Shown here: in pieces, positions 28,279-63,251 of the stretch
Position numbering within the stretch: the first letter of the stretch is position 1
Layout: each line of letters begins with the position of its first letter
Assembly: GCF_009914755.1 (NCBI RefSeq)
Contig: NC_060941.1
DNA: 64,000 nucleotides
DNA from: the human T2T-CHM13v2.0 reference genome, Homo sapiens
Direction: 5' to 3' (one strand)
The notes under the pieces: model-generated
Seen by the model: only the letters and a program-made list of their open reading frames with translations
What the model was told of the DNA's origin: nothing
The model's database searches: none
Made by a program: the position numbers and the translations under genes

Positions 28279-28434
<156 letters not shown>

Positions 28435-28841: not shown

Positions 28842-29573
<732 letters not shown>

Positions 29574-30949: not shown

Positions 30950-31320
30950 GCAGGGTTCATAGAACATGGGGTACTCGAGGCGCGTGGCACCGTGGGCGTG
31001 GAGGTCCCGTGGGACGGAATACACAGAGCGTGGGGTGTCTCAGGCGCGGGGCTCATGGGAATCCCAAGGCGCAAGGTGGGAGGCTGGAAGCGAGGAGCGC
31101 CCTGGGAGCAGGGTGTCCGAAGCGCGGGTACCGATCTGGGCAGCGCGGGGCACGCGGCGCGCGGGCGAGTCTGCGTGCGCGCGCGGACGCCTTGGTTCCC
31201 GGAGCCCAGTTGCTGGCGCGGCCTCCACTGCGGCTGCGAAGCCGAAGGTCTGAGGTGCGCCAGGGCTCTTTACGCGGCCCCCAGCCTCTCCGCACCCTTT
31301 GTCTCCTGAGCACGCCGCTC
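30950..31320. promoter_or_regulatory. Small CpG island upstream of the ADGRL1-like promoter
   Basis: Dense CGCG runs in non-repeat sequence. Confidence 0.6.
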
Positions 31321-33749: not shown

Positions 33750-35480
33750 TCCCTTCCCCGACTCCCCGCTCCAACGCGGGGGTCCAGCACGTCGCTTTCC
33801 CTCTCTCTGCTTTTCCAGGGAGGAGGCGAGAGGAGGCGAAAGGAAGGAAACTCCAGCACGGGTTTTCGGGCCGGCTCCTGGGGCGCTCAAGCGGGTTGCG
33901 GCGGCCAGTCCCGGGCGGCGACTCCGGGCCGGATTTTGCGCGCGCCCACCGCCCCCCTCCCGGAGCGGGTGCGCCGGGGAGAGGGGAGAGCTGGCGGCTT
34001 GTCATTGCTGGTTCCCGGCTCCGGCTCGGTCCGCGCGTCCTGCGGTGCCCACGGGCCCGGCCTGGCGCCCCCCCCTCCGGCCGCGCCGCCCCTCTCCGCC
34101 AGCTCCGCGCCGCCCGCCCCCAACCCGAGCTCCCCGCGGCCACTGCGGGGAGCCCGAGCCGTCGGCGCGGGAGCTGTCGGCGCTGCGGTGCCCCCGCCCC
34201 GCCGTCTGCCGAGGAGGCCCCGGCTGAGGGGGCCGCGCGGGCCCCGGAGCGGCGCCGCCGAGCGGCGGGGGCCTGCAGGGGCGCCCCCGCTGCCCCGTTA
34301 ACCCCTCGTCCACCGCCGCCGTCGGAGGGGGCTGGGAAGTCGCCTGGGCACACACGTGCCGCCTCCGTTGGGGCCGCGGAGCTGCGGGGGAGATGCGGGC
34401 CGCTGCCGGCGCCGCCTCGGGGCGCTCCGCCTCGCCCCAGCCCCCGGCGCTCTGACGCCGCCCCCGCCCCACAGCCTCCCTCCCCGGGAGGGGCGCAGAC
34501 CCGATCGCCCCCAGTCCCGAGCCTCCGCCGCCGCGAGGGGGCCGCCTTTGGATCCGTGTAATCCGCCTCTTTTTTTCTATTTTCTTTTTTTTTTTTTTTT
34601 TTTTTTTCTAATTTTTGGTTGGTGGCGGCGGTGCTGGGCCAGGGGAAGGAAGGGACACGGAGGCCGCCCTCGCCCCGCCACCTCCTACCAGCTTCCCCCC
34701 AGCCCCGGCTCCGGGAGATGTGCCGGGCGGGGGGCCCGGGTTCGCCGAGCCGCAGGAGAGACACGCTGGGCCGACCCCAGAGCGGCGCTGGACAGGTGAG
34801 TGTCTGCGGGCCCAGGGCGAGGGGCGAAGCCGCACCTGGGCCAGGTGTGCGGGGCGCGCGGAAGAGGGGAGGCGGGAAGGATGGGAGGCCGGGGCCTGTC
34901 CTGGCCGCGAGGGCGGAGGGGACGCTGGAGCCGCGCGGGGCACCGCACCTGAGCGGGAGGGGCGTCGGGGGCAGCCCGCACCTCACCCCCACTGGCGAGG
35001 GGCCCGGGAGGGGCGGCCCCCACGGAGCTCCCGGGGCGCGGGGGTGCGGACGGGCGACCGCAGGGTGCCTGGCGGGGGGAGGGGACAGCGAGTGTGCCCG
35101 CGCGCGCGCCAGCCTTTGTGGGGAAGCGGCGCCGCGGTGCCTGCGTGTCCCCGGTGCGTGTGCGCGCGGGTCCTTGGCGCCCTGTTTGTGTAGGTGTCTG
35201 GGTGTGAGCGGAGGGGGTGCGTGTGCGTGTGCGCGCCGCGCGCCGGCCCCGGGCCCCAGAGGATCCGTGTCGGGGATTGGCACCACAGGATGCTGGGCGA
35301 GGGGGTTGTTTTTCTCTGGGAGGCAGTGGCGCGGGGGATGGGGAGGGGTCCGTCTGGGTGTCAAGCCGGCCGCAGTCCGGGGGGCGCCGCTGTCAGGAAG
35401 AGGGGGTGCAGCCAGGCAGCACCTTCTCTCCGTGGTGCCGGGTTAAAGCACGGGAGGCCGGCAGGTTTGATCCACCCGGA
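33750..35480. promoter_or_regulatory. Large CpG island (ADGRL1-derived promoter, exon 1 and start of intron 1)
   Basis: Extremely GC- and CpG-rich, free of repeats, many GC boxes, surrounds a strong splice donor. Confidence 0.9.
34560..34795 (+). pseudogene. Duplicated non-coding exon 1 of ADGRL1 (latrophilin-1/LPHN1/LEC2)
   Basis: A T-tract followed by ctaatttttggttggtggcggcggtgctgggccaggggaaggaagggacacgg...caggagagacacgctgggccgaccccagagcggcgctggacag matches my recollection of the ADGRL1 mRNA 5'UTR. It ends at a consensus donor CAG|GTGAGT. No ADGRL1 coding exon was recognised downstream. The 5' boundary is approximate. Confidence 0.75.
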
Positions 35481-35974
35481 TTATTCGTGCTTTGAGGACA
35501 GCTCCCCACCCCCACCCCAGGTGCGCATTGGATTGAGCTACGAGGGTTCAGTTGTCATCCTCCCATCTGACGGTCCTGGGACCCGAGTCCAGGCCTGAAG
35601 TGGTGGGGTGGGGGGGTGCTGTGTTTGCTCCAGCCGTGTCCAGAAAATGCCCTCCCAGGTATCTCTCCAGTGCACCCCCGGCCCCCATCTGAAGACAGCC
35701 GCTGGCTACACACACCCCTGTCCCTACACTTCCAGTCCAGGTCCTCACACTGCCCCATCCCTGGCCAGCACCTCACTGTACCTGCCTGGACCCTTTCTTC
35801 CTGTTCCAACCCCCATCCACCCCCAGCCATGGCAGCTGCGTGGGGGTTTCTGTATCCCAGTTCCAGGCAGGGCCCCCCTCTTCCGCCTGGCTTCCACTAG
35901 ACTCAGAGCTGGGGTCTGTCTTCCCACATCCCACATCCCAACATGTGTGCCTGGGGGCAGGAGGGGGAGGGGTT

Positions 35975-35998
35975 CAAAATGGCTGCCAAGATGGCTGT
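35975..35998 (+). promoter_or_regulatory. Tandem YY1-like motifs
   Basis: CAAAATGGCTGC immediately followed by CAAGATGGCTGT. Confidence 0.5.
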
Positions 35999-36082
35999 CT
36001 CGCTGTCTCGCGCTCTCTCTCTCGCTGTCTCTCTCTCGCTCTCTGTCTTTCTCTATATCTCTCTCTCTCTCTTCCCCTCTCT
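35997..36082. repeat. Imperfect (CT)n tract
   Basis: gtctcgctgtctcgcgctctctctctcgctgtctctctctc... Confidence 0.85.
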
Positions 36083-38128
36083 GCTTGCCCGGCTCCCTTA
36101 TCCTGGTAGGGAGTCACTGCTTAGAGGAGGTTGGACCCAGTGGGGCACACCTGAGGGTGAATGTATATTCCCGGCCGTTGACCTCCATGCTGTTTGGGGA
36201 CAGACCATTGGTTTCTGCTTCTCTCTCCAACACCCCAAGGGCTGCCATGTGCCTAACCTGACCCCAGACCCCACTCCTTCACCCTGGCTCACAGCCTGAA
36301 AGCTCCCTGCCCTCCACCTGCTCTCCAGGGCCTGGCCCCCTGAATTGATCAACCCCGCGGAGGGTCCACACCCCTCATTCTCTTCTCCGGTCTGCCCCAC
36401 GGCCCGGGGGCAGGGGATTGATTCTGCGTGGGCCCCTGTCAGGCCCCAGCTTTGGGGGGCAGGTGACTTCTCCTTCCTCCCTGCTCCCCTTCCATTAATG
36501 CCAAATTTATTACTTAAAAGTAGGATGAAAACAGGGAGAATAAGAGAAGGTTTACAATCTTCATTATCATATCGAGAAAATTATCCGTGATTTTCCTAAC
36601 TAGCAATTTGCCTGCCATGCCGTTCAGAACTGACTTGCCCATTAATTACAGAGATGAAAAATCATCTGGAATTCGGAAAAGGGAACTAATTCCATGGCTG
36701 GCAGCGATCGCACCCGTGCACGGAGCCACATACATGTGCGACATACGTGTGCGCTCACATGTAGGTCCCGGCCCTCTTGCTGGTCTTGCCACCATCTTCC
36801 TACCCAGCTTGGTGACCTCCCTCATGGCCTTGCTCGGTCCACCCCATGTGTGTGTGGCACCTGCCCTGGGACACCCCTGCAGGCCCTCTTTCTCTCCAAG
36901 GGGCGCCCATCTCAATCCCCACTTCTGGGAAGCTTGCGTACCCCGTGATCACCCACGCTGATTCCTGCTCTTGGGGGTGTAGCTGGCGCCCAGGGTTGGG
37001 GAGGATGGAGAGCTGGGGACCAGCACACCTGGGCTGTGGAGCCTGCAGGGAGGGGGTGGAAGGGGGGGACTTGAAGCCCAGCTTCTATTCCCAGCCTGCC
37101 CAGGGGAGCCCTTTCTCCTGGGGGGCCTAGTAGGACCCTGTGGGCACGTTGGGGAGGAGCCTACAGGCGCCTCAGCTGCACGGGAGTGTGTTTGCATCCA
37201 GCAGTTTGGGCCCCCGGCCGGTGGCGTCTCCACCTGCACGTGAGGCTGTGTGATGCTTGCAGGCATCTCGGTGGGGAGGGTGGCAGCGGGTGCCCCTCAA
37301 GAGGAACAGGAGGAGTGGGAGCACTGCCATCCCCGCTGGAGCATCGTCTTTGCCCTCCACCCCCTCCTTCCTCCCTGGCGAGACATGTGGCCAGGGACAC
37401 ACAAGGCTCTGGGTTCTGTGTGGGTTCCTCTCACGGATCTGATTTCCACATGCCAGACACTTCCCCTTCTTCCAGCCCCTCCGTGGGGAGGCAGGGAGAG
37501 GGGCTCCCGAGGCGGGGGTTCCCTGGGTCTGAAACCCTGACCCCAGTGACCCTGAAGGTGCCATGGCAAGACAGACAGCTCCTCCCAGGCTGGGTTTGGG
37601 GCAAAGTGGTTGCTATTGGGCACCCTGATGGAAGGGGAGAGACGGGTCCTGGAGTGAGGTGGGAGGCCAAGTAGAAACATGGAGGGGGTCCCGGTGTCCC
37701 CAGAATCCAGATGTCTGTCTGTCTCTCCACCTGTGCATAGGTGTCCTCTGCCTGTGTGGCCTGGATGGTGATCTAGCCAAGGGTGCATGTGGCCACGTGA
37801 CCATCAGGCACATCCGGTGTTCATAAGGGTCCCTTGTGTGCTGGTGTTTGTGTTTTGCAGAGGGGGTGGTCATGCTGGGGGAGGTAGGGCTGCAAGAAGG
37901 AGTAGCTGTCTGTGTGCACACATGGAGCTGTTTGCATCTTTTGTGCACCTGCAGTTGTGTGCTCAGGATTTCTTGGAGCAAGGCTGGGTGCACCTTGTCA
38001 TGCAATCTGCACACACTTGCCAAGTGCCTTCCCCACCCAGCACCATGCGGGGGGTGCCATGGGGGCTGGTGGCCACGTCCTGTCCTCATGGAGCTCACAC
38101 TCTAGCAACACATATGGGGTTTCCATCA

Positions 38129-38563
<435 letters not shown>

Positions 38564-39544
38564 TCATGGTCTTTCTGGGCCACCTCCTCCCTCCTCGTTG
38601 CTCCTCCAGTGTGCTAAGTGTGATCCTACCCCGGGGCGTTTGCACTGCTGTTCTGCCATCTAGGACCCTTCCCCAGATATTTGCGAGGCTTTTTCTCCCC
38701 CACCCTCTTGAAATATCACCTCCCCAGTAAGGTTTACTCCCAGGCACCTTCTGCAGAGTCTCAGCTTCCCACACCCCTCCTGATGTTCAGTACAGCAGAC
38801 GGCTTTTCACATAGGCTGTAATTTCCTGATGTTCTGCGCTTGTTTGTTTACTGTCTGTGTCTGTGAGGAGGATCCAAGTGCGCGAGGATGTTGTGATTTG
38901 CTTTGCTTTGGGAATCCCAGGTGTCAGCAGTCATCACTGGCCCACAGTGTGCGTTCAAGAAGTCTTACCTGACCCAGGTGTGGTGACTCACACCTGTAAA
39001 CCCAGAATGTTGGGAAGCCGAGGTGGGAAGATTGCTCGAGGACAAGAATTTGAGATCAGCCTGGGCAACATAGCAAGACTCGTTTCTAAAAAATTTTTTT
39101 AATAGTTGGGCATCGTGAATATGCACCTGTAGTCTCAGCTGCTCAGGAGGCTGAGGTGGAAGGATCGCTTGAGCCCAGAAGTTTGAGGCTGCAGTGAGCT
39201 ATGATTGCACGAGTGCACTCCAGCCTGGGCGACAAAGCAGGATCCTGACTCTTAAAAAAAAAAAAAAAAAAAAAAGGCCCCTGCCTTCACTGTCTCCTGT
39301 TCCAAAATTTGGGGGGAGATAAAAATTCAATAAATAGATGCCCAGGCCAAAAATAGCCTTGCCCCCCCGCCAAAAAAAAAAAAAAAAGCCTCAGAATAGT
39401 CAGTGCCCCTCCCTCAGAGGCTAAAAATACCCTGCAGGTCACAAATGATCAGGTCAGGAAGCCAGGTGGATTCTCCTTCCTGTCCTTGAGGAGGTGAGGG
39501 GTCCGGGGCTGGCTTTCTCAGACAGGATTTCCCAGATGATTTCC

Positions 39545-39745
39545 ATTACTCCTGACTTTGGCACTGCATCATTCTCTGTGGGAGGCTGTCCTTTGTACTA
39601 TAGGATGCTCAGAGGCCACCCTAGCCTCTTCCCGATGGATGTCAGTGACACCTCCAGCCCCACAGTTGTAACACCTCGGAACGTCTCCAGACATTGCTAA
39701 ACATACTGGGATCAGGGGCAGAATTGTCCTGGGTTGGCAGTGATG
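39545..39745. mobile_element. MER20 fossil in the opposite orientation
   Basis: ggctgtcct...taggatgctc...cagttgtaacac...gtctccagacattgc. Confidence 0.65.
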
Positions 39746-40273
39746 GCTGTAGAGTAGAGGTTGCCAGTGGGGCAAGGTGGCCCACGCCTGTAATCCTAGC
39801 ACTTTGGGAGGCTGAGGCAGGAGGATCACTTGAGTCCAGGAGTTCAAGACCAGCCTGGGCGACAAAGCGAGACCCCCTTCTTTACAGAATAAAAAATTAA
39901 AAAATTCGTTGGGCATGGTGCTGCACGCCTGTCGTCCCAGCTACTCGGGAGGCTGAGGCAGGAGGATCACTTGAGCTGGGAGGTCAAGGCTGCAGTGAGC
40001 TGTGATCCCGCCAGTGCATTCCAGCCTGGGCAACAGAGCAAGACCCTGTCTCAAAAAAATATATACATAAATAAAATAGAGTAGAGGTTGGCTGACTTTC
40101 CTGTAGAAAGCCCGATGGTAAATCCTGCAAGCTTTGCGGGCCGCAGACGGGTTCTGTGGCCTGTTCTCTTTTCTCTTCTCTTCAGTCCTTTAAAAATGTA
40201 AACACCATTCTTAGCTCACCAGCTGTACAAAAGCAGGCTGGGGCCTGGCCATGGTTGGCCGACCCTGCCCCAG

Positions 40274-40292
40274 AACGCCCCCTAGTGGCTTC
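40274..40292 (-). promoter_or_regulatory. CTCF motif
   Basis: Minus strand AAGCCACTAGGGGGCGTT. Confidence 0.6.
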
Positions 40293-40627
40293 TGGGAGTG
40301 AAGGCTGGGCAGAGGGGCGGCCCCATTTGGGGAGCAGTTGTGTGCTTAAAGTACAAGGCGAGTCCCGCGCAGTCTGTTCCCGGCACCTCCCTGCTCTCAC
40401 CTCCTCCCACTCTCCTCACCAGCTCACGACCCGCTTCCTCGATGCAGCTGCCACCGTTATTCAAACATACAGGCACAGTCCAGCCCCAGGGCCTTTGCAC
40501 GGGCTGTGACCCTGCCTAGGACGCTCTTCTAACTCTCCTGAACTGATCACCTGCGTGCTCCTCCCTCAAATTCACAGAGGTTTGCTAAAATGTCATCTTC
40601 TCCAGGGGAGATGACCTTTCTTGATCA

Positions 40628-40819
<192 letters not shown>

Positions 40820-40822
40820 TCA

Positions 40823-40981
<159 letters not shown>

Positions 40982-43424
40982 TCATGCCTGTAATCCCAGC
41001 ACTTTGGGAGGATGAGGTGGGAGGATTGCTTGAGTTCGAGACCAGCCTGGGAAACATAACGAGGCCCCCATTTCTACAAAAAAATTAAAAATTAGCTGGG
41101 CACGATGGCACACGCCCTGTGGTCCCAGCTACTTGGGAGGCCGAGGCAGGAGGATCCCTTGAGCTCAGAGGCTGTGGTGAGCCATGATCCCACCACTGCA
41201 CTCCACCCTGGGCAACAGAGCGAGACCCTGTCTTTAAAAATACGATTAAAAAAAAAAAAACACTCCCAAACCCACACACACTCATAGCCACTTTTCCTGG
41301 CTTTATCTTCTTTCACAACACTGGTACGCTACAGAGTCGACTTTTTTGTACCCAGCCCCTCAGTGTCTGGCACATAGAAGATGCTCCAAAAAAGATGTGT
41401 GGAATTGCCAAAAATTATTTCTAACCCCCACAGCCACCCTGGGATGCTATCGTTCCCCAGCTCCCCCGTGGAGAGACAGAATTGAGAGGAGTGATGTGGG
41501 TGTCCTGTCGTGCCGACATGACGGCGCACAGCCTGGATTTGAACCTGCAACTTAAGGGCGCTATGCCCGGGGCCTCTTCTCTCCTGCCCTGCTAGGCACC
41601 ATGCCCCCGTCTCCTGGTCTCACCCTGCCCCTTAACTGCCGGCATCTGATGAGGCAGGGGGATCCCGCCTCTGTGCCCTCTGCTCGGGCCCTAGCTTCTA
41701 GAACTCTTCAGCTCTGCTCTGCTGAGCTCGGAGTGCAAAGCTTGGGGCTGGACAGTGAACACTTTGGAGTGGAAACAGACCACAGGCCACAGGCCACAGG
41801 ACCTGCCATGATGGTGAGCACAGCAGAGGTGCAAGTCAGGGAAGGCTTCCCGGAGGCGGGGGCTTCCCAGCTGCAACCTGGAGTGGGAGGAGGGGTATGG
41901 CGGAGGGGAAAGAGCATCTGTGAGAGAGAGGGGCTGCCCTGAGGTCAGACAGAAGGTGGTGGCTCAAAGGGGAGGAAGGAGAGATGTTTCACAACTGCAC
42001 ATGGAGAGAAGCTGGAGGCTGCTGGCTGGCCTTGTGACTGTGAGTCTGTTTGGTTTGTCCGTGGGGCTGCCAGGGCCTGTGGCAGGGATGGGGGTAGAGG
42101 TAGGGGGTTTATGTCAGGATCCAGATGTCAGGGTGAGAATGTTTAGCATGAGCTCCCTCTAGCTGCTACATGGGAGAGAGCCATAGTTGGCAGGAAGGGA
42201 GGCCAGGAGGCCAGAAGGGAGGCCAGGAGGCAACCAGCAAGGTGAGGGCCAGAAGCAGCCAGCACTTGGTGGAAGCTTCAGGTTTCTGGCTTTGACAGCC
42301 CTGTGGACAAAAGGCAAGGGACAGGTGGGGTAGGGAGTACCCTCCACTCCCAGCAACCCTCCCCACACACAGTCTGATCTCCATCTCTGTGGCCAGAGGA
42401 CACCTGTGAACACCCGAGCCAGATCCCATCCCTCCTTTGTTCAGGATTCCCAATGGCTCCCACCTCTCTAGAAAGCCAAAGTCCTCCTTGAGGTCCACAA
42501 GGCCCTGCATGGCCTCTGTGACCCCCCTCCCCAGCTGCCCTCACCTCCTTCCACTCTTCCCTTGCTTGCAAGGCCCCAGCCACATCTCAGCACATTCCTA
42601 CCCCAGGACCTTTGCACGTGCTGTTCCCTCTGCCCAGAATGCTCTTTCCACAGGTACCTAGATGGCTCACCTCCTCAAGACCTCTGCCAAAATGTCACTT
42701 TTTAGGGGAGGTATTTCCTGGCCACCCTGTCTACAGTTGCACCTACACGTATACCCCCTCTCAGGCACACCTTCCTCCATTGCACTTGTGACCAGTTGGG
42801 AACTCGGTAAACATCCACTGAATAGATGATCTGCTTTTTGGGTCTATTTCATCTTCATTCATTAAACAAATGAACAAGCATCCACTCCTTGCCCAGGGCT
42901 GGGTATGCAACAAGAGCCAGCCCAACCCGCAATGGTACTTTGCCCTCAGAGTCCCTCGATGGTGGAGAAGACAGACATTAAACAGCTGAGTCCAAGTCCA
43001 GTTAGGGGAGCAAAACACAGAGGCCCTGTGTTCTGTGAGAGTGGATATGAGAGATACGAATGCCGTCCTCTGGGCAGAGCCCTTTGGAGGGAGAGCAGAA
43101 TAAGGAACTGTGTGTGAGAGAGAGACAGACGCTGAGTAGAAGTGATGGGAAGGTGGCAGGACAGCAGGGCCTGAGATGCCATGTTAGAGCATCACAGGCA
43201 ATAGGGAGCCATGGAGGGTTGTAGGCAGGGAGGGGTGTAATTGGATTTCCATTTTGCAAAGATCATTCTGGCCTCAGGGTAGAGACTGGATGGGACAGGG
43301 GTAGCAGATAGATGGGGAGACGAAGGAGAAGGTGTCGGGGGGGTGCAGGGAATTTTTTGAACGACCCCTACCGCTCTGCAGTCTAGTGCTGCTTGGTGGC
43401 TGGGGTGACCTTTATTTTATTTAG

Positions 43425-43586
<162 letters not shown>

Positions 43587-43976
43587 TAGAGAGAGGATCT
43601 CACTGTGTTGCCCAGGCTGGTCTCAAACTCCTGGCCACAAGCAATTCTGCATTGGTCTCCCAAAGTGCTAGGATTACAGGTATGAGCCACTGTACCCAGC
43701 TCCAGGGTGACCTTTAAAAGGTTCTTCATTGAACAATTATATTTCAGCTTCCTGCTTGTGCCAGGCACTGTGCTGAGTGTAGTATGCAAACCCCACCCTG
43801 CAGAGCCAGCATCTAGTAGCAGAGAGTTCATAAGCAAATAAAACGCATGGCGTGCTGGTGATAGGTATGGAGAAATCAAGTCAGGACACGGCGTAGGAGT
43901 GCGGGGGCCAGCAGGACCTTGCCGAGCTAGTGATGTTTGAGGAACGACCAAAAGGAAGATGCAGGAGGAGCTGTGA

Positions 43977-44240
<264 letters not shown>

Positions 44241-44464
44241 TAGAGACAGGGTTTCACTATGTTGCCCAGGCTGGTCTGGAACTTCTGAGCCCAAGCAATC
44301 AGCCCGCTTCAGCCTCCCGAAGTGCTGGGATTACAGGTGTGCGCCGCCACATCCGGCCCAGTGCAGAGCCTTTGTATGATACAGACTTTGGCTTTTGGTC
44401 GAGTGAGGTGGGAGCCACGGAGGGTTCTGAGCAGAGGAGGGAAGCAGCTGACTTAGATGCTCAC

Positions 44465-44483
44465 AAGCGCCCTCTGGTGGCCA
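44465..44483 (-). promoter_or_regulatory. CTCF motif
   Basis: Minus strand TGGCCACCAGAGGGCGCTT, a near-perfect CTCF core consensus. Binding cannot be shown from sequence. Confidence 0.7.
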
Positions 44484-45267
44484 TGGGGGAAACATACTGT
44501 AGACAGTTTCATTTTGCAAAGATTGTTCTCACCTCGGGGTAGAGATTGGATGGGACAGGGGTGGCAGATAGATGGGGAGACGAGGTGTAGACAGTGAGGT
44601 GGGGAAGTGGGGTCCAGCCAGGAGATGATGGGGCTGGACCAGAGAAGCTGAGGAGTGGCGAGAGGTGAGTGGGCTCTGAAGGAGTAGCCACAGGACCTGA
44701 CGGGGCTGGATGTGATGTGAGGGGAGAGGGATCCAGGATGACTGTCCGGTTCCTGAGCACCTGGAGGGACTGGGCTGCCATCCGCTGAGCTGGAGGATGG
44801 GGCAGGGACTGGAGATGCCGCGACAACCCTGCCCTGCCCAAGGACCATGTACCTGGGCCCTCTCTGGGCACGTGCTCTGTCTCTGCGAGGTAGGTCTGTT
44901 AGTCCCTGAGCAGCAATGGGGAAATAGGTTCAGAGAGGCCAAGTGCTTGCTCTGAAGCTACACAGCAGATTGAAATTCAGGAGCTTCGACTCTCAGCTGG
45001 TCCTTCATAGTCACCCCGGGGCCTGCAGCTTCCTTATGGACCTGCCGGATGCCTGAGGGCTTCCTGGAGGAGGTGGGCTCATGGGCGGCTGGGTTTGGGG
45101 AGTGGGCAGGAGGCAGGAGATGCAGCCAGAGGGCTGTGTGTGGAGGGGCCGGCTGCTGCCAAGAAGGGAGAAGACCATGAAGGGGGCTCAGATCCCAGAT
45201 CCCCACCTTGGTTCCCCGCCACCCCACCCAAGGCACTCAGACTCCCACCCCCTCAAGCGCGCAGAGG

Positions 45268-45281
45268 GTTGCCATGGCAAC
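45268..45281. promoter_or_regulatory. RFX X-box (perfect palindrome)
   Basis: GTTGCCATGGCAAC is the full RFX consensus and lies in unique sequence. Confidence 0.65.
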
Positions 45282-45686
45282 TGCAGGCTAGGGCAGGCTA
45301 GAGGCGCCCCCTCTCCCCCAGCAGCCACTTCTCCTCCTGTCGCTCTCCCCATCTCCATCCCAGGGCACCCGAGGACAGAGTCTAGGCCTTAGTGGCCCAC
45401 CCTGCCGCACCGACCCTTGACTTGAGACAGACGTAGGGCTTAGATGCGAACATACAGGCAGGTGTGCAGCCCCGTTTCCCATGGGTGAAATAGGGTCACC
45501 TATGGCTGGGTGCAATGGATTCCTGGGTACACCTGTAATCCCAGCATTTTGAGAGGCTGAGGCGGGAGGATTGCTTGAGCCCAGGAATTCAAGACCAGCC
45601 TGGGCAACATGGTGAAACCTCATCTCTACAAAAAACACAAAAATTAGCCAGGCGGGGGTTTGTGTGCCTGTAGTCCCAGCTACTCA

Positions 45687-45785
<99 letters not shown>

Positions 45786-47072
45786 CTACTGTCTCAAAGG
45801 AAAAAAAAAAAAAAAGAGAAAGAGAAGAAAGAAGGAAAGAAAAAAGAAAGACAAATAAGGTGACTGGAGACTACTGAGGTGCAAGCGGGGGACAGACACA
45901 GGTGTGGGCTCACCTGGCTTCCCAGATGTAGAACGTCCAGGCGTGACCAGCTCTGAGGTTGCATAGACACTCAAATACAGTGTGGGCCCGGGGGTGGGGG
46001 CTCTTCTGGCCCCCCAGGATACCCCCACAGCTCATCAAGCCCAACCTGGGGAGCCAGCCCTCCCTGGGTTCAAGCCCCCTTACCAGTTGGGTGTCCCTGG
46101 GTATATCTCTTCAATGACAGGACCTCACTTTCCTCCTCTGTAAGCTGTGGGTACAAGCATCTCTCCTTCCTAAATGGTTATTAGGATTACATGAGCTACA
46201 CATGGAAGCTGTTCGGGCTGGGACTTGGAGGTGTCCGCCACTGTCCCAGGCATCTCAGGTGATTCCTTGCTGGAGAGCCCAGCTAGATGCCCTCCCTGTC
46301 GTTTGCTGTTTCCTGTAAATGGTTTCTTTAAAGTTCTGCGGCTCAGGCCCTTGCCCCCATCTCTGCCTCCCTCCTCACTCTCTGTGTGTCCTGACTCCCT
46401 ATATGAATTTCCTAGGCTCCCACAACAAATTACCACAGACGGGACAGCTTTAGCAACAGAGACTTTATTGGTTTTTTTGTTTATGTTTCAGAGATGGGGT
46501 CTTGCTCTATTGCCCAGGCTGAAGTGTAGTGGTGCGATCACAGGTCACTGCAGCCTCAACCTCCCGGGCTCAAGTGATCCTCCCACTTCAGCCTCCTGAG
46601 CAGCTGGGACTACAGGTGCATCCCGTCATGCCCAGCTACTTTTTTATATTTGTTTATAGAGCTGGGGTCTCACTGTGTTGCCCAGGCTCGTCTCAAACTC
46701 TTGGGCTCAAGCAATTCTCCCGCCTTGGCCTCCCAAAGTGCTGGGATTACAGGCGTGAGCCACTGCAGCCAACAACAGAATTGTGTCGCCTCCCAGCTCT
46801 GGAGGTTGGAAGTCCAAGATCAAGGTGTCGTCAGGGTTGGTTCCTTCTGGGAGCCTTCAGGGAGAATCCATTGCAGGCCTGTCTCCTGGCTTCTTTTGGT
46901 CATTAACTGGCAATCTTCCCTGGCTTCTAGAAGCATCACTCTGATCTCTGCCTTCATGGTCACATGGTCTTCTGTGCATGTCTGTGTCCAGGTTTCTCCT
47001 TTGTATAAGGGCATCAGTTGTTGGATTAGGACCCACACTAATGACCTCATTTTAACTTGATTATCTCTGTAA

Positions 47073-47645
<573 letters not shown>

Positions 47646-48371
47646 TAAGGCAATGGCACCCTGCCTGTGGGGGTCAGGCGTGGCCCGCCAGGTCACAGGG
47701 CAGATGCCCCATCTCCAGCTATCCTCACTGCCATCCTTAGTCACTCCCCTGTGACTAAGTAAGTTTTTGCTTGGGGACCCACTGTGTGTTCAGGGGACCA
47801 GGAGACAGGAGTCAGGGAAACCAAGTTCCAGCCTCAGGAGTTTCCATTCTCCTGGGAGTAGAAAGAAAATCTAGAAGGCTGGGTGCGGTGGCTCATGCCT
47901 GTAATCTCAGCACTTTGGGAGGCTGAGGCGGGTGGATCACCTGAGGTTGGGAGTTCGAGAGCAGCCTGACCAATATGGCAAAACCCTTTCTCTACTAAAA
48001 ATACAAAAATTAGCCAGGTGTGGTGGCCTGTGACTGTAATCTCAGCTACTCAGGAGGCTGAGGCAGGAGAATCACTCGAGGTTCTTGAATCACTTGAGGC
48101 AGAGGTTGCGGTGAGCCAAGATCACGCCAATGCATTCCAGCCTGGGCGACAGAGCAAGACTCCGTCTCAAAACAAAACAAAGAAAAGGCCGGGAGCAGTG
48201 GCTCACGCCTGTAATCCCAACACTTTGGGAGATCAAGGCAGGCAGATCACCTGAGTTTGGGAGTTCAAGACCAGCCTGACCAACATTGTTAGTAGAGCAA
48301 AACGTCGTCTCTACTAAAAATACAAAAATTAGGCAGGCTTGGTGGCGTGTGACTGTAATCCTAGCTACTCA

Positions 48372-48521
<150 letters not shown>

Positions 48522-48562
48522 TCAAGTAAAAGTATAGAGCAGGGATGGGATGGATGAGGTTA

Positions 48563-49098
<536 letters not shown>

Positions 49099-49452
49099 TT
49101 ATAGTGAGAAGGCGGAAGAGAATTTCCACAGAAACTGAATTCGCTGGCACCTTGATCTTGGCCTTCTGGCCTCCAGAACTAGGAGGAAGTAAATTTCTGC
49201 TGTGTAAGCCGCGCAGTCTGTGGTACTTTGTTATGGCAGCCCGAGCTAATGGAGAAGGTGACAATGGGGACAAGGGATGCTTCACCCTGTCTATGTGCCA
49301 GGAGCATCCCGAGTGTCTCATGTGTGTGAATTTGTCCTGTTGCACAGCTGCCCTCTGAGGTATCCCCGTTTTACCAAGAAGAAAACAGAGACACAAGAGG
49401 TCACAGCATGGCAAGGGATGCACAGGCAGGTGGTGACTGCAGGGCACTGTGA

Positions 49453-50165
<713 letters not shown>

Positions 50166-50279
50166 GGCTGGTCTTGAACTCTTGACCTCAGGTGATCTGC
50201 CCTCCTCGGCCTCCCAAAGTGCTGGGATTACAGGTGTGAGCTACTGGCCCGGCCAAGATTGTCTTTTAAAACACCCCTC

Positions 50280-52010
<1,731 letters not shown>

Positions 52011-52130
52011 CTGGACACAGTGGCTCATGCCTGTAATCCCAACACGTTGGGAGGCCGAGGCGGGTGGATCACTTGAGGTCAGGAGTTCCAGACGAGCCTG
52101 GCCAACATGGTGAAACCCCGTGTCTACTCA

Positions 52131-52619
<489 letters not shown>

Positions 52620-53292
52620 TCAGCGGGGGCTCCACTCTGGAGTCTCAGCATTCTAGGGTGCAGCCTGGGAGGAAGAGAGGGACTGCCTCTTCCGTGGGTG
52701 TCTTTGTGCCCTGACTGGCGCCAGGCTGTGCATGGCACCCTCTGATGGGGCCTGTGTTGGCCCAGCGTGTACGTGCACTGCTCTCCTTACCAGAACCCTG
52801 CAGAATAGCAGCGCAGAGGGAACCAGGGCCAGGGAGGTGAGGAGACCAGCTCAAGGTCACACAGGGCACGTATAAGGCAAAATTGGGATCTAGACCCATG
52901 TGGATTCGCTGCCCACACAACTTGGCATCGGGTGGCTTCCCTGCCCTTTTTTTTTTTTTTTAATTAAGAGAGGGTCTTGCTCTGTTGCCCAGACTGGAGT
53001 GCAGTGGCAGGATCATAGCTTACTGCAGCCTTGCAAACTCCTGGGCTCAAGTGATCCTCTTGCCTCAGCCTCCCAAGTAGCTGGGCACCACCACGCCAAA
53101 TTAAAAAACAAAAAATTTGGCCGGGCGCTGTGGCTCACGCCTGTAATCCCAGCACTTTGAGAGGCCCAGGTGGGCTGATCACGAGGTCAAGAGATCGAGA
53201 CCATCCTGGCCAACACGGTGAAACCCCGTCTCTACTAAAAATACAAAAAATAGCTGGGCGTGGTGGCGCATGCCTGTAGTCCCAGCTACTCA

Positions 53293-53415
<123 letters not shown>

Positions 53416-53742
53416 CTAGAGACATGTTGCCCAGGCTGGAGTGCAGTGGCACGATCATAGCTCACTGCAGCCTTGAACTCCTGGGCTGAAGTGATCCACC
53501 CACCTTAGCCTCCCAAAGCACTGGGATCACAGGCATGAGTCACCGTACAAATCCAGCCATTTTTACTTCCCCTAACCAGTTCCTCTGCTAGGATGCCTGT
53601 TGCAGTGTGAAAGAAAGCGCTTGGAGACCCTGGGAGGGGAGTACTCCTCAGCTTGGGGACACTGCCTCCACTGAACCTTCCTGTGGCTGGACAGTTGGAG
53701 AAATGAGGAAGTTGAAATAAGGAAGCCACTCCCCATCCCCAA

Positions 53743-53934
53743 AGTAACATGCTGGAAAATGATCTGAAAGTGACACCAGCCATGTCTAGTCACAGATGTG
53801 GGGGGAGATGCGGACGGGGGCTGGTGGCGGCTGGGGGAGTAACACGCTGTAAAATGATCTGAAAGTGACACCAGCCGTGTCTAGTCAGGGATGTGGGGGG
53901 AGATGCGGATGGGGGCTGGAGGTGGCTGCGGGGG
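53743..53934. repeat. Two-copy tandem duplication, period about 95 bp
   Basis: agtaacatgctggaaaatgatctgaaagtgacaccagcc... at 53743 recurs at 53838 with few substitutions. Confidence 0.9.
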
Positions 53935-53943
53935 ATTTAGTGA

Positions 53944-54465
<522 letters not shown>

Positions 54466-55258
54466 TAAGGGCCTCTCTCAAGAAGCTCATGTTGATAAAA
54501 AGGTAATTTCAGGTGCTCACTTGAGAGCTGTGAATTAAAAACAGGGAAAAGATGGCGGGTGAGGGCAGCAGGCGAGGACTGTTTTGTTTGCAGGGGGCCA
54601 GGGTAGGTCACTCTGCTGCGGTGACCTTGCGGCTGAGCCCTGAACAATGAGCAGCCGCAGCCAACATGCAGGGATCCTGCTTGGGGGCTGGAACTGGAAT
54701 GTTGAATGTTTCAGGAACAGGAGGGAGGACAGAATGGGGCTTGGAGAGCTTGGTGGCACCAGTTCACCCACAGCCTCTGGGCTCTAGTGAGGAAATGAGA
54801 CCCCAGCAGAGACCAGGGGGTCAGTTAATGTTCGGATCAACATCATTATGTGGTCCCTTAGCTCTGAGTGAAGGGCGGATTGGGAGGCGGGCAAGGAGGC
54901 CAGGACAACATACAGGTGACATAGGATGGCGGCATGGGCCTGGGTGCTGTGCTTAGAGCCAGAAGTGGGCAGGTCGCGAGATACTTGAGAGGCAGAGCCC
55001 ACAGGACTTGCTGATGGCTTCTGTGAGGGGGATGACAGGGAAGGTGAGGAATCAAGGCAGAGTCTCAGCTTTGGGATCTGAGATTCATTCAACAAATAAT
55101 TCAGTGCCGCGTGCCAGGCCTATTCTAAAAGTTGAGGATATGAAGACAACAATGGTGATGGCCTCAAGCAGTAATCCCAGCACTTTGGGATGTTGAGGCA
55201 GGAGGATCTCTTGAGGCCAGAAGTTCATGTTCAGCCTGGGCAACATAGCAAGACCTCA

Positions 55259-55420
<162 letters not shown>

Positions 55421-55906
55421 CTATCTCTAAAAAAAAAAAGTAAAATTTGGGGATACGGCCACCATGAGCAAAACAGTTCAATGATCCCTGCCCCATGAAG
55501 AGGACATTCTATACACCAGGTGAATAGTTCCATCTGAGCAATGGCCTGAAGGAGCCGGCCATGTGGACAGTGGGTTGGCAGAAGCTACAGGTGGAGGAAG
55601 CGACAGGTGCAAAGGCCCTGGGGCAAGGCCTGCTGTGGTCCAGGAATAGCAGGAGTGGCTGGAGCAGACATGGGGTCAGGGAGCTAACTGGGCCAATTAC
55701 AAGGGTTTTGGTTTTCAGCAGGGAAATGGTAATGGGGGCTCTGATGAGAAATTCCAGGCTGGACATAAGAGATTTGAAAGTGCTGGCTCAATGATGGTAC
55801 TGAGAGCCCAGGACAGCCTGAGATGGGACAGGCTGGGATGACAGCTGGATGTGACAGAGCAGGGGTTCCCATGCTGGAGGGCCCGCCTCAGAGAATGTGT
55901 GTTTCT

Positions 55907-56274
<368 letters not shown>

Positions 56275-56379
56275 TCAAGAAGAGAAGAGTGTATGTAAGT
56301 ACTTCTCAACCAGTTTACCTCTCTGACCGCTCTTACGGTGTTTGGGGGCAAAAAACTAAGGATCTAGACTCTTTAAACC

Positions 56380-57215
<836 letters not shown>

Positions 57216-59093
57216 TAGTGGAGGGAGGAATTGAGGGGATGTCCCCCTTTCGGAGATTACGTCTCCAGGGGATCCGGAGTCCAGGGCCTTGGGAGAGCTG
57301 GAAAAGAGGGTCTGGGTGGGTTCTTGACTCCCCCAAGATTGACGCAAGAGGCTCGGGACTGGGGCCCCACGTTCAGAGCAGGCGGCTTTTAGATGAGGAG
57401 GTAGCAGTTGAACTGAGCCGCAGTCACATCCCGAGACTGGTTCTTGTTTTCTTTCATGCCTTTCGGACTCTAGAAATACAGGGGTTTCGGTTGTAGCTTT
57501 TGAGGGGCAAAATGAAGCCTGTGAAGGGATGAGTGCAGTGGAACCGAAGAAAGTGTCCTTAGTCTGAAATGCCTTCGCGCTAACTTGGTGCTGCAGGTTC
57601 CTATGGCACCTTTGGATGCTTAAAACCCTTCAAATCTATCCACCCATTTTGTGGATATGTAAACTGAGCCAGAGAGTGGTCAAGCATCTTCTCTGGAGAC
57701 GACCCCAGAATTCTGCTTTTTCTACTCGGCTTACAGGACATTTTCTTGGGTCAATTTCTGTTTCTAAGGTCTGTCTGGTAGGTGAAACTGACTTATTTGG
57801 AAAGGAGAGCAAGGTGTCTGGAAACAAACAATAGAATTTATTAAAAACATCGTGACTATGAATAATCCTGATTGTTCTTTAAGGAATGTTATATCCTGAT
57901 TGGTTTCCTTTTTTGCTTTTGTGTGTTATAATTTGGGTGATCTTTAATAGCTAAGTAATCTTACAGAAACTTGAATAAACTTGGCTCTACCGCCCAGTGT
58001 CCTTATTTACAGTTTCACTGTGGCATATATTAAGGGCATGGTATCAGCTGTGCTTAGAAAGACCGTATTATGTTGTTTAATACCCTTCCTTCATTCTCTC
58101 TCATTAGTGCTTCATGAAATTCTAATTGGAACTTAATAGAAGGAGTTTCAGTTTTTATCGAAACGAATATTGACCTTGCTTCAGAGAGATTCACATTATT
58201 CACATATTTCTTAATATACTTTGAAATATCTAGAGAGGCTTTAATTGGAAATAGGATGGAGAACTGAAGGGCAGTGGTGACAATAATGATACTTGTTTGT
58301 ACCCCTTCTAAAGTATCTCATCTCCCTTTAGTTAATTTAAGATAAAACTAACCAATTGAAGATTTAGGTGGAAATTTTAAAAGTTCTTTCTGAATGTTAA
58401 GAGAAGACACATTCTCCAAGAAAGTTTTAACTATTTGCGTTCTGATGAGTCGACCTCAGGGAAGTCAAGTGTCATTAAGAGCTAGATCTGGTCATAAAAC
58501 AACTTGAAGTTGTTTACTGGAAAGTTTAAATACTTGAATGTAATTATTCACAGTTATTTCTATTTGGTTTATTCTGATACTGCTGTATAATGACAACGTG
58601 ATACTAATAGGTCATTAATGTAACTAATATAATAGTATATGTATTTTTCATCCACTTAAGTCCTGTATAACAAATTACATTTTAACTAATTTGAAATTTA
58701 ATTCAACTCATTTTAAGCGTTAGACGGTTTTGTGAATCTGTCAATTGTGTAAAAAATGTATTGAGGTAATATTTATATTGAACAAAATAGATAAAACTTT
58801 AAATTATAATTAGGAATATTTATTGAGAATTTTTTCTGCAGTTTGTGTCCGAGATTTATTTCAACATTGACTGACTTTTGAGTGCAGTGGATCCCACCTG
58901 TAATCCTAGCTACTCTGGAGGCTGAGGCAGGAGGATCTGTTGAGCCCACGAGTTTGAGACCAGCCTGGGCAACATATCAAGACCCCTTTTCAAAAAAAGA
59001 AAAAAAAAATCTTGACTGACTTTCATCATACCTGTATTAGGAATGTCTGGATCTGTATTAGGATGTCATCATATCTGTATTAGGATGTATTAG

Positions 59094-59415
<322 letters not shown>

Positions 59416-59884
59416 GGCTGACTACAAATTTTTTAAGTGACCATTTAAAAAGTGAAATTTTCATCTTGTTTGGCATCAATCAATAGTTCTTTTGTTGACT
59501 CCAGCTACCTATTACAGCTGCTTTTTGGAAGAAAATCGGTTATAAATAGTTTAAATTAAGCTAAGTTAAATGAGTACAACTGCTTCTCTTGAGTTCTGCT
59601 CGGTAACAATAACTATCTTAGAAAGGCTTAAGAAAAATATTGTAAAGAACCTTCAGTATAAAAAGCGTAGATGAACTTTGTGAATGTATGCCATTGATTG
59701 AATACCTTTTGATCTTACTGTGCATACTAACTTTCTTGATGTAAATATTTAGTGCGATATAAATATTTAGTGCGTGATTTCCATAGCAGATGACAAGTTT
59801 ATATTGATTATAACATGGTCTCGGTTGATATTTTTCTGACAAGTAAGTTTAGATCATGTTTGGATTTTGTTTCCTATTACCTAG

Positions 59885-59931
59885 AGCCAACACAGATCTA
59901 TAGATTTCTTTGAACTCGGAATCTCATAGCA
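59885..59931 (+). pseudogene. SUZ12P1: SUZ12P1 exon 2 (47 nt) with premature stop
   Basis: Acceptor ...ttacctag|AG CCA ACA CAG ATC TAT AGA TTT CTT TGA ACT CGG AAT CTC ATA GCA|gtaagt. TGA replaces the Arg codon in RFLRTRN. Confidence 0.95.
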
Positions 59932-60020
59932 GTAAGTAGTCAACAAAATTCATCAATATTATTTCTCTCTTATAACTGCATCTGTATTCAATTTTAACAT
60001 TTTTAAAACTCTTTTTGTAG

Positions 60021-60085
60021 CCAATATTTTTGCACAGAACTCTTACTTACATGTCTCATCGAAACTCCAGAACAAACATCAAAAG
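60021..60085 (+). pseudogene. SUZ12P1: SUZ12P1 exon 3 (65 nt), reading frame open
   Basis: ctttttgtag|CCAATATTTTTGCAC...AACATCAAAAG|gtacat translates PIFLHRTLTYMSHRNSRTNIK(R), the same as SUZ12 as I recall it. Confidence 0.95.
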
Positions 60086-60315
60086 GTACATTTTATGAAT
60101 CTTATTTCAAGCTGATCAAACCATGTTAGTTTTATTTTAAAGTACTATTTCTCAAAATTAAAAAAAAGAACAAAAATAAGTACTATTTCTAACTAAAGAT
60201 TTAATATGAAAACTGAAGTGAGAGAGTGACTGGTTGAATTGGTTGCACAGTGGTTTTCAATAGTATAATCTTTGTAAGTCTCAGGTTGTTATTAGCTTTT
60301 TTTTTTTTTCCCCTA

Positions 60316-60631
<316 letters not shown>

Positions 60632-60711
60632 TTAGTAGTTAAGTGAATAAAGTGATTTTACTGATTATATTTTTACTCTGTGCCATGGGTTATTTCTCTT
60701 TTTGTTTGTTT

Positions 60712-62174
<1,463 letters not shown>

Positions 62175-62177
62175 TGA

Positions 62178-62411
<234 letters not shown>

Positions 62412-62528
62412 TAGCCAGGATGGTCTCGATCTCCTGACGTCAGGATCCGCCTGCTTCGGCCTCCCAAAGTGCTGGCATTACAGGAGTGAGCCACCATGCC
62501 CAGCCTGGCCTTCTTTTTCTTTTTTTGA

Positions 62529-62780
<252 letters not shown>

Positions 62781-63011: not shown

Positions 63012-63251
<240 letters not shown>

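What the first reader, a model, noticed from the sequence alone, without database searches (positions are those of the whole stretch)
34560..60085. Candidate chimeric gene: a duplicated ADGRL1 promoter and exon 1 upstream of SUZ12P1, with a reading frame that can bypass the pseudogene stop
Seen: an intact CpG island and exon with a consensus donor (CAG|GTGAGT at 34795/6) lie on the same strand about 25 kb upstream of intact SUZ12P1 acceptors, and no ADGRL1 exon 2 was recognised in between. The exon has an ATG at 34718 (G at -3) that reads 26 codons (MCRAGGPGSPSRRRDTLGRPQSGAGQ) to a phase-0 donor. Splicing to exon 2 (59885) gives a 40-aa micro-ORF ending ...SQHRSIDFFELGIS*. Splicing directly to exon 3 (60021, phase 0) puts it in the SUZ12 frame (PIFLHRTLTYMSHRN...) and skips the TGA. 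Inference: duplication placed a neuronal adhesion-GPCR promoter in front of a PRC2-subunit fragment, which could give a hominid-specific fusion RNA and possibly an N-terminally swapped, truncated SUZ12. A long 5' SUZ12P1 isoform may already be annotated; the frame-rescue possibility is my own deduction.
Basis: partly seen in the sequence, partly recalled or inferred. Interest (0 to 1): 0.8.

Follow-up and report, generated by a model that had tools for sequence, protein, structure and literature searches.

The report
Known chimeric ADGRL1–SUZ12 pseudogene transcript
A copied promoter and first exon of the ADGRL1 gene sit in front of a broken partial copy of SUZ12 and drive an already annotated non-coding RNA, and the proposed rescue of a SUZ12-like protein fails because the copy is frameshifted two exons further on.

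Summary
The sequence facts are right. The CpG island, exon 34592-34795, donor, ATG 34718 with 26 codons, the 40-aa ORF and the in-frame join to exon 3 are all present.

Exon 1 is a copy of the ADGRL1 5' end on chr19. The chr19-derived duplicon is at least 66 kb and about 95% identical. It stops 1.7 kb short of ADGRL1's first coding exon. It joins a 50-kb SUZ12 copy inside a chimeric Alu at window ~55.91-55.95 kb. No NF1-REPc paralog exists.

The frame rescue fails. Exon 5 has a 1-nt deletion, so skipping exon 2 gives 107 aa, of which only 54 are SUZ12 residues (108-161). Further lesions are a 1-nt deletion in exon 7, a TGA in exon 8, a lost exon 9 donor and no exons 10-16.

The chimera is already in RefSeq and was noted in print in 2012. 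Verdict: a known transcribed chimeric pseudogene of low interest.

The parts
1..55950 (+). chr19 (ADGRL1 5' region) segmental duplicon. It starts before the window, at or beyond window -10465. It contains ADGRL1 upstream sequence, promoter, exon 1 and about 21 kb of intron 1.
   Evidence: 14 colinear BLAST blocks to chr19:14311953-14380000(-). There are 61,699 ungapped columns with 1,975 mismatches. Latrophilin Pfam exons lie at chr19:14277528-14279537(-). An exon at chr19:14304184-14304363 is 100% identical to proteins named ADGRL1.
33800..35400 (+). CpG island, a copy of the ADGRL1 promoter island
   Evidence: GC 0.76, CpG o/e 0.87. 189 CpGs are shared with chr19 and CpG loss is symmetric, 4 versus 4. 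The hub table lists RefSeq enhancer 34008-34684 and silencer 33888-34107.
34592..34795 (+). SUZ12P1 exon 1a, a copy of ADGRL1 non-coding exon 1, with donor CAG|GTGAGT
   Evidence: Outside the T-tract it differs from chr19 at 34673, 34690 and 34783, plus a 3-nt indel. The exon bounds come from the hub's RefSeq table.
34718..34795 (+). Upstream ATG plus 26 codons, inherited from the ADGRL1 5' UTR. It starts the 40-aa ORF of the annotated splice form.
   Evidence: It is the only ATG in exon 1a. The ATG and frame are present in chr19 with one amino-acid difference.
55906..56215 (+). Chimeric Alu at the junction of the two duplicons; crossover at about 55906-55950
   Evidence: Three-way alignment. 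The left flank and the first Alu bases follow chr19. From about 55950 onward the Alu body, poly-A and right flank follow the SUZ12 parent.
55905..64000 (+). SUZ12-derived duplicon. It continues outside the window to 105063, homologous to chr17:32882163-32932721.
   Evidence: 6 BLAST blocks, 47,758 ungapped columns, 1,175 mismatches.
56300..57111 (+). Copy of the SUZ12 CpG island and SUZ12 exon 1 (exon 1b). The coding part is 56874-57111, with the ATG and donor kept and three 12-nt in-frame deletions.
   Evidence: In one search, the 56300-57500 stretch has CpG o/e 0.80 and 92 CpGs shared with the parent. The hub table lists RefSeq enhancer 56587-57207.
59885..59931 (+). SUZ12P1 exon 2 (SUZ12 exon 2) with CGA>TGA at 59911-59913. 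The 40-aa ORF from 34718 stops at 59927-59929.
60021..60085 (+). SUZ12P1 exon 3, identical to SUZ12 exon 3 (residues 108-128 plus 2 nt)

Best explanation
This is the known transcribed pseudogene SUZ12P1, a mosaic of two segmental duplications.

How it is built:
- A duplicon of at least 66 kb copied from 19p13 carries the ADGRL1 upstream region, CpG-island promoter, non-coding exon 1 and most of intron 1.
- It was joined by Alu-Alu recombination to a 50-kb copy of the 5' half of SUZ12, covering about 1 kb of promoter and exons 1-9.

How it most likely works (inferred):
- Transcripts that start at the ADGRL1-derived island use the inherited consensus donor at 34795.
- The SUZ12-like exon 1 is a first exon and has no acceptor. 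The donor therefore splices to the first good acceptor downstream, SUZ12 exon 2.
- The product is non-coding in any SUZ12 sense. The first ATG gives a 40-aa ORF that ends in exon 2, far upstream of the last junction. By the usual rule (recalled) the RNA should be NMD-prone if it is translated.
- The SUZ12 reading frame is destroyed many times over.

Shown here: the duplicon origins, the junction, the exon lesions and the ORF lengths.
Inferred: the reason for splice choice, NMD and lack of protein function.
Taken from annotation, not tested: that the 34795-59885 junction is used in RNA.
For: Origin:
- Searches show colinear chr19 homology.
- Searches show that the chr19 locus is ADGRL1. Its first coding exon lies at chr19:14310184-14310255(-), 1.7 kb beyond the duplicon end.

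Junction: one search shows the chimeric Alu.

SUZ12 part:
- the parent's exons 1-9 splice into a clean 341-aa ORF, with AG at all 8 acceptors and GT at all 9 donors.
- 9 of 9 exons were mapped in SUZ12P1. The lesions are a TGA in exon 2, a 1-nt deletion in exon 5, a 1-nt deletion in exon 7, a TGA in exon 8 and GT>CT at the exon 9 donor.
- 3 of 3 VEFS-box matches lie in the parent and none in SUZ12P1.
- PMC8553723 (passage) says SUZ12 exon 10 lies outside the homology.

ORFs: one search gives 40, 107, 88 and 71 aa. One search gives maxima of 188 and 247 aa over 256 exon combinations for each start.

Neutral decay: exons 2-9 have 9 substitutions in 747 nt (1.2%). That is half the duplicon-wide 2.46%, as expected if only the parent copy is constrained. 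Two of the 9 are nonsense, and there are 2 frameshifting deletions as well.

Prior record: the hub's RefSeq table lists NR_144395.1. [quoted passage not shown]
Against: - Both CpG islands kept full CpG density with symmetric CpG loss. This suggests they stayed unmethylated in the germline and are active.
- Papers report phenotypes on SUZ12P1 knock-down. PMC12013597 reports a CRISPRi drop-out hit in colorectal lines, and PMC5312399 reports siRNA effects in prostate lines (passages). The RNA may therefore not be inert.
- Exons 3, 4, 6 and 9 are identical to the parent.
- A SUZ12-frame ORF of 71 aa starts at an ATG in exon 3 of the annotated splice form.
- I saw no RNA, CAGE, Ribo-seq or proteomic data. 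I saw only 1 of the 4 RefSeq transcripts, so I cannot say how much RNA starts at exon 1a or whether exon 2 is ever skipped.
Confidence: 0.88

Rival explanations
1. SUZ12P1 RNAs are translated into a small protein that carries the SUZ12 WDB1 segment. This would be either the 107-aa exon-2-skipped product from the ADGRL1-derived ATG, or the 71-aa ORF from the exon 3 ATG reached after the 40-aa upstream ORF. The protein would act on RBBP4/7 or PRC2 assembly.
For: - The frame logic holds through exons 3-4, which are identical to the parent.
- Residues 108-161 include the whole WDB1 (aa 110-145), according to a passage of bioRxiv 10.1101/2023.04.30.538846.
- WDB1 contacts RBBP4/7, according to a passage of PMC7000746.
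- Knock-down phenotypes are reported.
Against: - No evidence of exon 2 skipping. The exon 2 splice sites are identical to the parent's over +/-30 nt, and skipping this 47-nt exon would shift the parent's reading frame.
- The ORF ends in exon 6 with several junctions downstream, so NMD is expected (recalled rule).
- The tail is 27 out-of-frame residues.
- Exon divergence fits neutral decay.
- ZnB, C2, Zn, WDB2 and VEFS are all missing.
- Two papers hold both 'SUZ12P1' and 'Ribo-seq'. In the passages I read, neither mention concerns its translation.
Confidence: 0.05
2. The exon 1a-exon 2 junction is an artefact. ADGRL1 exon 1 reads or cDNAs would be mis-assigned to chr17, or a template switch would link ADGRL1 and SUZ12 RNAs. 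There would be no real chimeric transcript.
For: Exon 1a is nearly identical to ADGRL1 exon 1. FusionFinder lists this case under multi-mapping false fusions.
Against: - The genome itself places the two parts in cis, on the same strand, with a consensus donor and an intact acceptor.
- RefSeq marks the model BestRefSeq (hub table).
- FusionFinder's point is that the SUZ12P RNA really contains both kinds of exons.
Confidence: 0.03
3. This reading does not exclude the best explanation. Most SUZ12P1 RNA starts at the SUZ12-derived CpG island and exon 1b (56.3-57.1 kb). The ADGRL1-derived exon 1a isoform is then a minor alternative start, and the 'neuronal promoter capture' matters little.
For: Exon 1b keeps its ATG, donor and CpG island: CpG o/e 0.80 and 98% substitution identity to the parent island. 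The hub table lists a RefSeq enhancer at 56587-57207. Only 1 of the 4 RefSeq transcripts was shown to me.
Against: The upstream island is equally well kept, and the RefSeq gene span starts at 34592.
Confidence: 0.4

Closest known systems
SUZ12P1 (SUZ12P) as annotated in RefSeq and used in the NF1-microdeletion literature
   Same: It is this locus. The exon 1a-exon 2-exon 3 structure is RefSeq NR_144395.1 (hub table). The homology with SUZ12 ends before exon 10 (PMC8553723 passage). Its exons were said in 2012 to be shared with LPHN1 and SUZ12 (PMC3384600 passage).
   Different: I did not find these details in the papers I searched:
- the chimeric-Alu junction;
- the size of the chr19 duplicon, at least 66 kb;
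- the stop 1.7 kb short of ADGRL1 exon 2;
- the exon-by-exon lesion list.
Older subscription papers on NF1-REP structure are not in the library.
Chimeric transcripts born where two segmental duplications abut (a class recalled from the primate segmental-duplication literature, not looked up here)
   Same: The promoter and first exon of one parent gene drive exons copied from another. The junction lies in a repeat.
   Different: No open reading frame spans the two parts, so this is not a new protein-coding fusion gene.
SUZ12P1-CRLF3 polymorphic fusion RNA (PMC11077074)
   Same: It is a fusion transcript that involves the same pseudogene.
   Different: That fusion is at the 3' side (SUZ12P1 exon 7 to CRLF3 exon 3 or 4). 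It is caused by a population-specific rearrangement (abstract and passage). The paper does not mention ADGRL1 or LPHN1 (0 occurrences).
SUZ12 (parent gene, PRC2 core subunit)
   Same: Exons 3, 4, 6 and 9 are identical. The two copies show 2.5% substitutions across 47.8 kb.
   Different: The copy lacks exons 10-16, which include the Zn finger, WDB2 and VEFS. It carries 2 nonsense codons, 2 frameshifts and 1 lost donor.

Membership tests
Unprocessed (duplicated) pseudogene of SUZ12 | Homology to the parent runs through introns as well as exons | tested here: met
   6 colinear blocks from window 55905 to 105063, 95.6-96.7% identity.
Unprocessed (duplicated) pseudogene of SUZ12 | Disabling lesions in the parental reading frame | tested here: met
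   TGA in exons 2 and 8, 1-nt deletions in exons 5 and 7, exon 9 donor GT>CT; exons 10-16 are absent.
Chimeric transcript across juxtaposed segmental duplications | Each part has its own parent locus elsewhere in the genome | tested here: met
   (chr19 ADGRL1 5' region). (SUZ12).
Chimeric transcript across juxtaposed segmental duplications | A genomic junction between the two duplicons lies inside the transcription unit | tested here: met
   chimeric Alu at 55906-55950, inside annotated intron 1.
Chimeric transcript across juxtaposed segmental duplications | RNA that splices from one part into the other | not testable with these tools
   Taken from the hub's RefSeq row (NR_144395.1, BestRefSeq) and the PMC3384600 passage. 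No RNA data were available here.
Protein-coding fusion gene (new gene from duplication) | An open reading frame that runs from the captured first exon through a functional part of the second parent | tested here: not met
   40 aa as annotated; 107 aa with exon 2 skipped, of which 54 are SUZ12 residues; the maximum is 188 aa over 256 exon combinations.
Protein-coding fusion gene (new gene from duplication) | Selective constraint on the exons of the copy | tested here: not met
   9 substitutions in 747 nt (1.2%), half the duplicon-wide 2.46%, as expected with constraint on the parent only. Two of the 9 are nonsense.
ADGRL1 (latrophilin-1) gene copy | Presence of ADGRL1 coding sequence | tested here: not met
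   no tblastn hit better than E = 1.6 in the window and downstream sequence. The first coding exon, chr19:14310184-14310255, lies outside the duplicon.

The most novel reading that the evidence does not exclude
SUZ12P1 RNAs make a great-ape-specific micro-protein that contains the complete RBBP4/7-binding WDB1 segment of SUZ12 (residues 108-161 or 118-161). Two routes are possible: the ADGRL1-derived ATG with exon 2 skipped (107 aa), or re-initiation at the exon 3 ATG after the 40-aa upstream ORF (71 aa). The product would compete with SUZ12 for RBBP4/7 and so tune PRC2 assembly. This could explain the reported proliferation phenotypes.
Probability: 0.03. Interest if true: 0.6.

Novelty: already known. 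Interest (0 to 1): 0.15.

Why it matters
As it stands this is a tidy example of how segmental duplications build a transcribed chimera. One gene's promoter and first exon are captured in front of another gene's exons through an Alu-Alu junction. It makes no new protein.

Practical points:
1. Exon 1a and both promoters are near-identical to ADGRL1 and SUZ12, so short reads, fusion callers, CRISPRi guides and siRNAs can cross-hit. In the two promoter regions, 141 of 263 and 175 of 263 NGG protospacers have perfect 23-nt matches in the parent loci. Published SUZ12P1 'dependencies' deserve a specificity check.
2. SUZ12P1 has two CpG-island starts. TSS-based assays need to say which one they target.

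Tried and rejected
- 20-kb DNA queries against the genome were swamped by Alu, LTR and SVA hits. Only 38 candidates were scored in each. I fetched the chr19 and chr17 regions instead and aligned them locally.
- Literature:
  - 'SUZ12P1' + 'ADGRL1': 0 papers.
  - 'SUZ12P' + 'LPHN1': 1 paper.
  - NF1-REP / 19p13 / JJAZ1 / latrophilin terms: 43 papers hold at least 2 of the 6 terms and 15 were listed. None concerns the origin of exon 1, judging by title and abstract.
  - 'SUZ12P' + 'segmental duplication' + 'chimeric': 4 papers. I checked SUZ12P passages in 2 of them (PMC12721320, PMC9641868) and they do not address it. The other 2 I saw only as listing and abstract.
- Exon 5 of SUZ12P1 was missed by tblastn and was found by DNA alignment.
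- I considered that exon-skipping combinations might restore a long frame and rejected it.
- I considered that identical exons 3, 4, 6 and 9 signal constraint and rejected it. The exon divergence equals half the neutral value.
- I ran no structure or complex prediction.
Full report
**Observation.**
- Window 33.8-35.4 kb is a dense CpG island: GC 0.76, CpG o/e 0.87.
- The annotated exon 34592-34795 ends in CAG|GTGAGT.
- Its only ATG is at 34718, with G at -3. It reads 26 codons to a phase-0 donor.
Joined to 60021 it enters the SUZ12 frame.
- Exon 3 is 21 of 21 identical to residues 108-128 of PDB chain 6c23_A, 'Polycomb protein SUZ12'.
- Exon 2 carries TGA at 59911-59913 where the parent has CGA.

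**Origin of exon 1.** The whole genome of the window could be searched. Window 33800-35400 gave 10 matches. Two span the query: the window itself and chr19:14332035-14333678 on the minus strand (93%, 2516 bits). The other eight are 40-52-nt hits to the T-rich tract.

The chr19 locus is ADGRL1:
- The Latrophilin C-terminal Pfam domain matches chr19:14277528-14279537(-). The only other loci are on chr1 and chr4, and all 11 matches fall in these three loci.
- SUEL-lectin exons lie at chr19:14297345-14304327(-).
- The exon at chr19:14304184-14304363 is 100% identical to proteins that their sources name 'adhesion G protein-coupled receptor L1'.
- A primate ADGRL1 (P0184) places the first coding exon, which holds the signal peptide, at chr19:14310184-14310255(-).

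Exon 1a aligns to chr19 with the ATG, the 26-codon frame (one amino-acid change) and the donor all shared. The ATG is therefore an inherited upstream ATG of the ADGRL1 5' UTR. With the likeliest ADGRL1 exon 2 acceptor, which I inferred from the polypyrimidine tract, it would open a short upstream ORF that stops before the ADGRL1 start codon.

**Extent and junction.**
- The chr19 homology is not a small promoter fragment. It is colinear from window -10465, the limit of what I fetched, to about 55.9 kb. This is 14 blocks, 61,699 ungapped columns and 3.2% substitutions.
- It ends in ADGRL1 intron 1, 1.7 kb short of the first coding exon. No ADGRL1 coding match exists in the window; the best tblastn E-value is 1.6.
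- SUZ12 homology runs from window 55905 to 105063, matching chr17:32882163-32932721. This is 6 blocks, 47,758 columns and 2.5% substitutions.
- The two duplicons meet in one Alu. A three-way alignment shows the left flank and the first bases of the Alu following chr19. From about 55950 the Alu body, poly-A and right flank follow the SUZ12 parent. This is the signature of an Alu-Alu-mediated join.

tblastn with a full-length mammalian SUZ12 (P0088) shows that the SUZ12 duplicon begins about 1 kb upstream of the SUZ12 start codon. It therefore includes a copy of SUZ12 exon 1 at 56874-57111. The ATG and donor are intact and there are three 12-nt in-frame deletions. Its CpG island is kept too: CpG o/e 0.80, with 92 CpGs shared with the parent. 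The hub's table lists a RefSeq enhancer at 56587-57207. SUZ12P1 thus has two CpG-island starts. As a first exon, exon 1b has no acceptor. This explains why transcripts from exon 1a jump over it to exon 2; that step is my inference.

**The reading frame.** I defined the parent's exons 1-9 from tblastn and splice sites. They give a clean 341-aa ORF with AG at all 8 acceptors and GT at all 9 donors. All 9 exons map in SUZ12P1 (coordinates above 64000 lie outside the window):

| Exon | Window coordinates | State in SUZ12P1 |
|---|---|---|
| 2 | 59885-59931 | TGA |
| 3 | 60021-60085 | identical to parent |
| 4 | 68289-68357 | identical to parent |
| 5 | 84475-84523 | 1-nt deletion |
| 6 | 91482-91567 | identical to parent |
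| 7 | 93813-94043 | 1-nt deletion |
| 8 | 94851-94944 | TGA |
| 9 | 101275-101380 | identical to parent, but donor GT>CT |

- Exons 10-16 lie outside the duplication. All 3 VEFS-box matches are in the parent. A passage of PMC8553723 says SUZ12 exon 10 is outside the homology.
- ORFs: the annotated splice form gives 40 aa. Exon 2 skipped gives 107 aa, made of 26 aa, then SUZ12 residues 108-161, then 27 out-of-frame residues, with the stop in exon 6 at 91542. Exon 1b plus exon 2 gives 88 aa. An ATG in exon 3 opens a 71-aa ORF.
- Over all 256 combinations of exons 2-9, the longest ORF is 188 aa from ATG 34718 and 247 aa from the exon 1b ATG.
- Residues 108-161 cover WDB1 (aa 110-145) and the hinge. 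They do not cover ZnB (79-106) and include only the first residues of C2 (153-365). These boundaries come from a passage of bioRxiv 10.1101/2023.04.30.538846.

**Evolution.**
- Exons 2-9 carry 9 substitutions in 747 nt (1.2%), against 2.46% duplicon-wide (binomial P = 0.012). This is half the neutral value, which is what is expected if only the parent copy is under purifying selection. Two of the nine are nonsense, and there are two frameshifts. I see no sign of coding constraint on the copy.
- Jukes-Cantor distances are 0.033 for the chr19 duplicon and 0.025 for the SUZ12 duplicon. Against recalled human-ape divergences these sit near or after the orangutan split. 'Hominid-specific' is plausible but untested, and gene conversion with SUZ12 could make the copy look younger.
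- Both islands lost CpGs symmetrically with their parents, 4 versus 4 and 2 versus 3. This fits continued germline hypomethylation.

**Literature.**
- No paper holds both 'SUZ12P1' and 'ADGRL1'.
- PMC11077074 (abstract and passages) describes a different, 3'-side polymorphic SUZ12P1-CRLF3 fusion.
- PMC12013597 and PMC5312399 (passages) treat SUZ12P1 as a lncRNA with knock-down phenotypes.
- Neither of the two papers holding 'SUZ12P1' and 'Ribo-seq' addresses its translation in the passages I read.
- I opened no supplements. Guide and siRNA sequences there bear on specificity. In the two promoter regions, 141 of 263 and 175 of 263 NGG protospacers have perfect 23-nt matches in ADGRL1 and SUZ12 respectively.
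- Older subscription papers on NF1-REP structure are outside the library and may describe the chr19 segment.

**Verdict.** The chimera is real but already annotated and already noted in print. The one original deduction, frame rescue giving a truncated SUZ12, fails two exons later. The locus is a transcribed mosaic pseudogene (confidence 0.88).

The boldest reading left open is a micro-protein carrying the WDB1 segment. I put it at about 3%.

Limits: I had no RNA, CAGE, Ribo-seq, proteomic or other-primate data, and I saw one of the four RefSeq transcripts.

Noticed in passing
window 25026-25993: A ~968-bp element is inserted, on the minus strand, into an Alu about 9.5 kb upstream of exon 1a. 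It is 99% identical to dozens of loci genome-wide and absent from the chr19 parent, which is continuous at 14340771-14340778. A short direct repeat flanks it. Its ends look like a HERV-K-type solo LTR (LTR5Hs); that name is from recall and no repeat library was run. RefSeq 'enhancer' rows 24387-25361 and 25362-26335 overlap it.
   Followed up: partly
window 60722-61774: A ~1.05-kb insertion lies in SUZ12P1 intron 3 and is absent from the parent SUZ12. It has a T-rich start, an Alu-like part and a terminal (GGGAGA)n run. This looks like an antisense SVA (name from recall). Many loci match it at 92-98%. A 2026 preprint lists SUZ12P1 among genes near accessible human-specific retroelements (passage).
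   Followed up: partly
window 34292-35095 and 56400-57400: 54% (141 of 263) and 67% (175 of 263) of NGG protospacers in the two SUZ12P1 promoter regions have perfect 23-nt matches in the ADGRL1 and SUZ12 promoter regions. CRISPRi or siRNA phenotypes ascribed to SUZ12P1 could therefore be cross-hits.
   Followed up: partly
p1 coordinates 82791-82795 (outside the window), parent chr17:32908023-32910327: About 2.3 kb present in SUZ12 intron 4 has no counterpart in SUZ12P1. It is either an insertion in the parent or a deletion in the copy.
   Followed up: no
window 34570-34610: The annotated 5' end of exon 1a (34592) falls inside a long T-run that is also present, with differences, in ADGRL1. The true start may lie further upstream in the island. 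There an ATG at 34393 would add another short upstream ORF (read).
   Followed up: no
window 101381-101382 (outside the window): The exon 9 donor is CT instead of GT. The annotated 10-exon transcript must therefore use another donor or skip this exon. I could not see the RefSeq exon list beyond the window.
   Followed up: no
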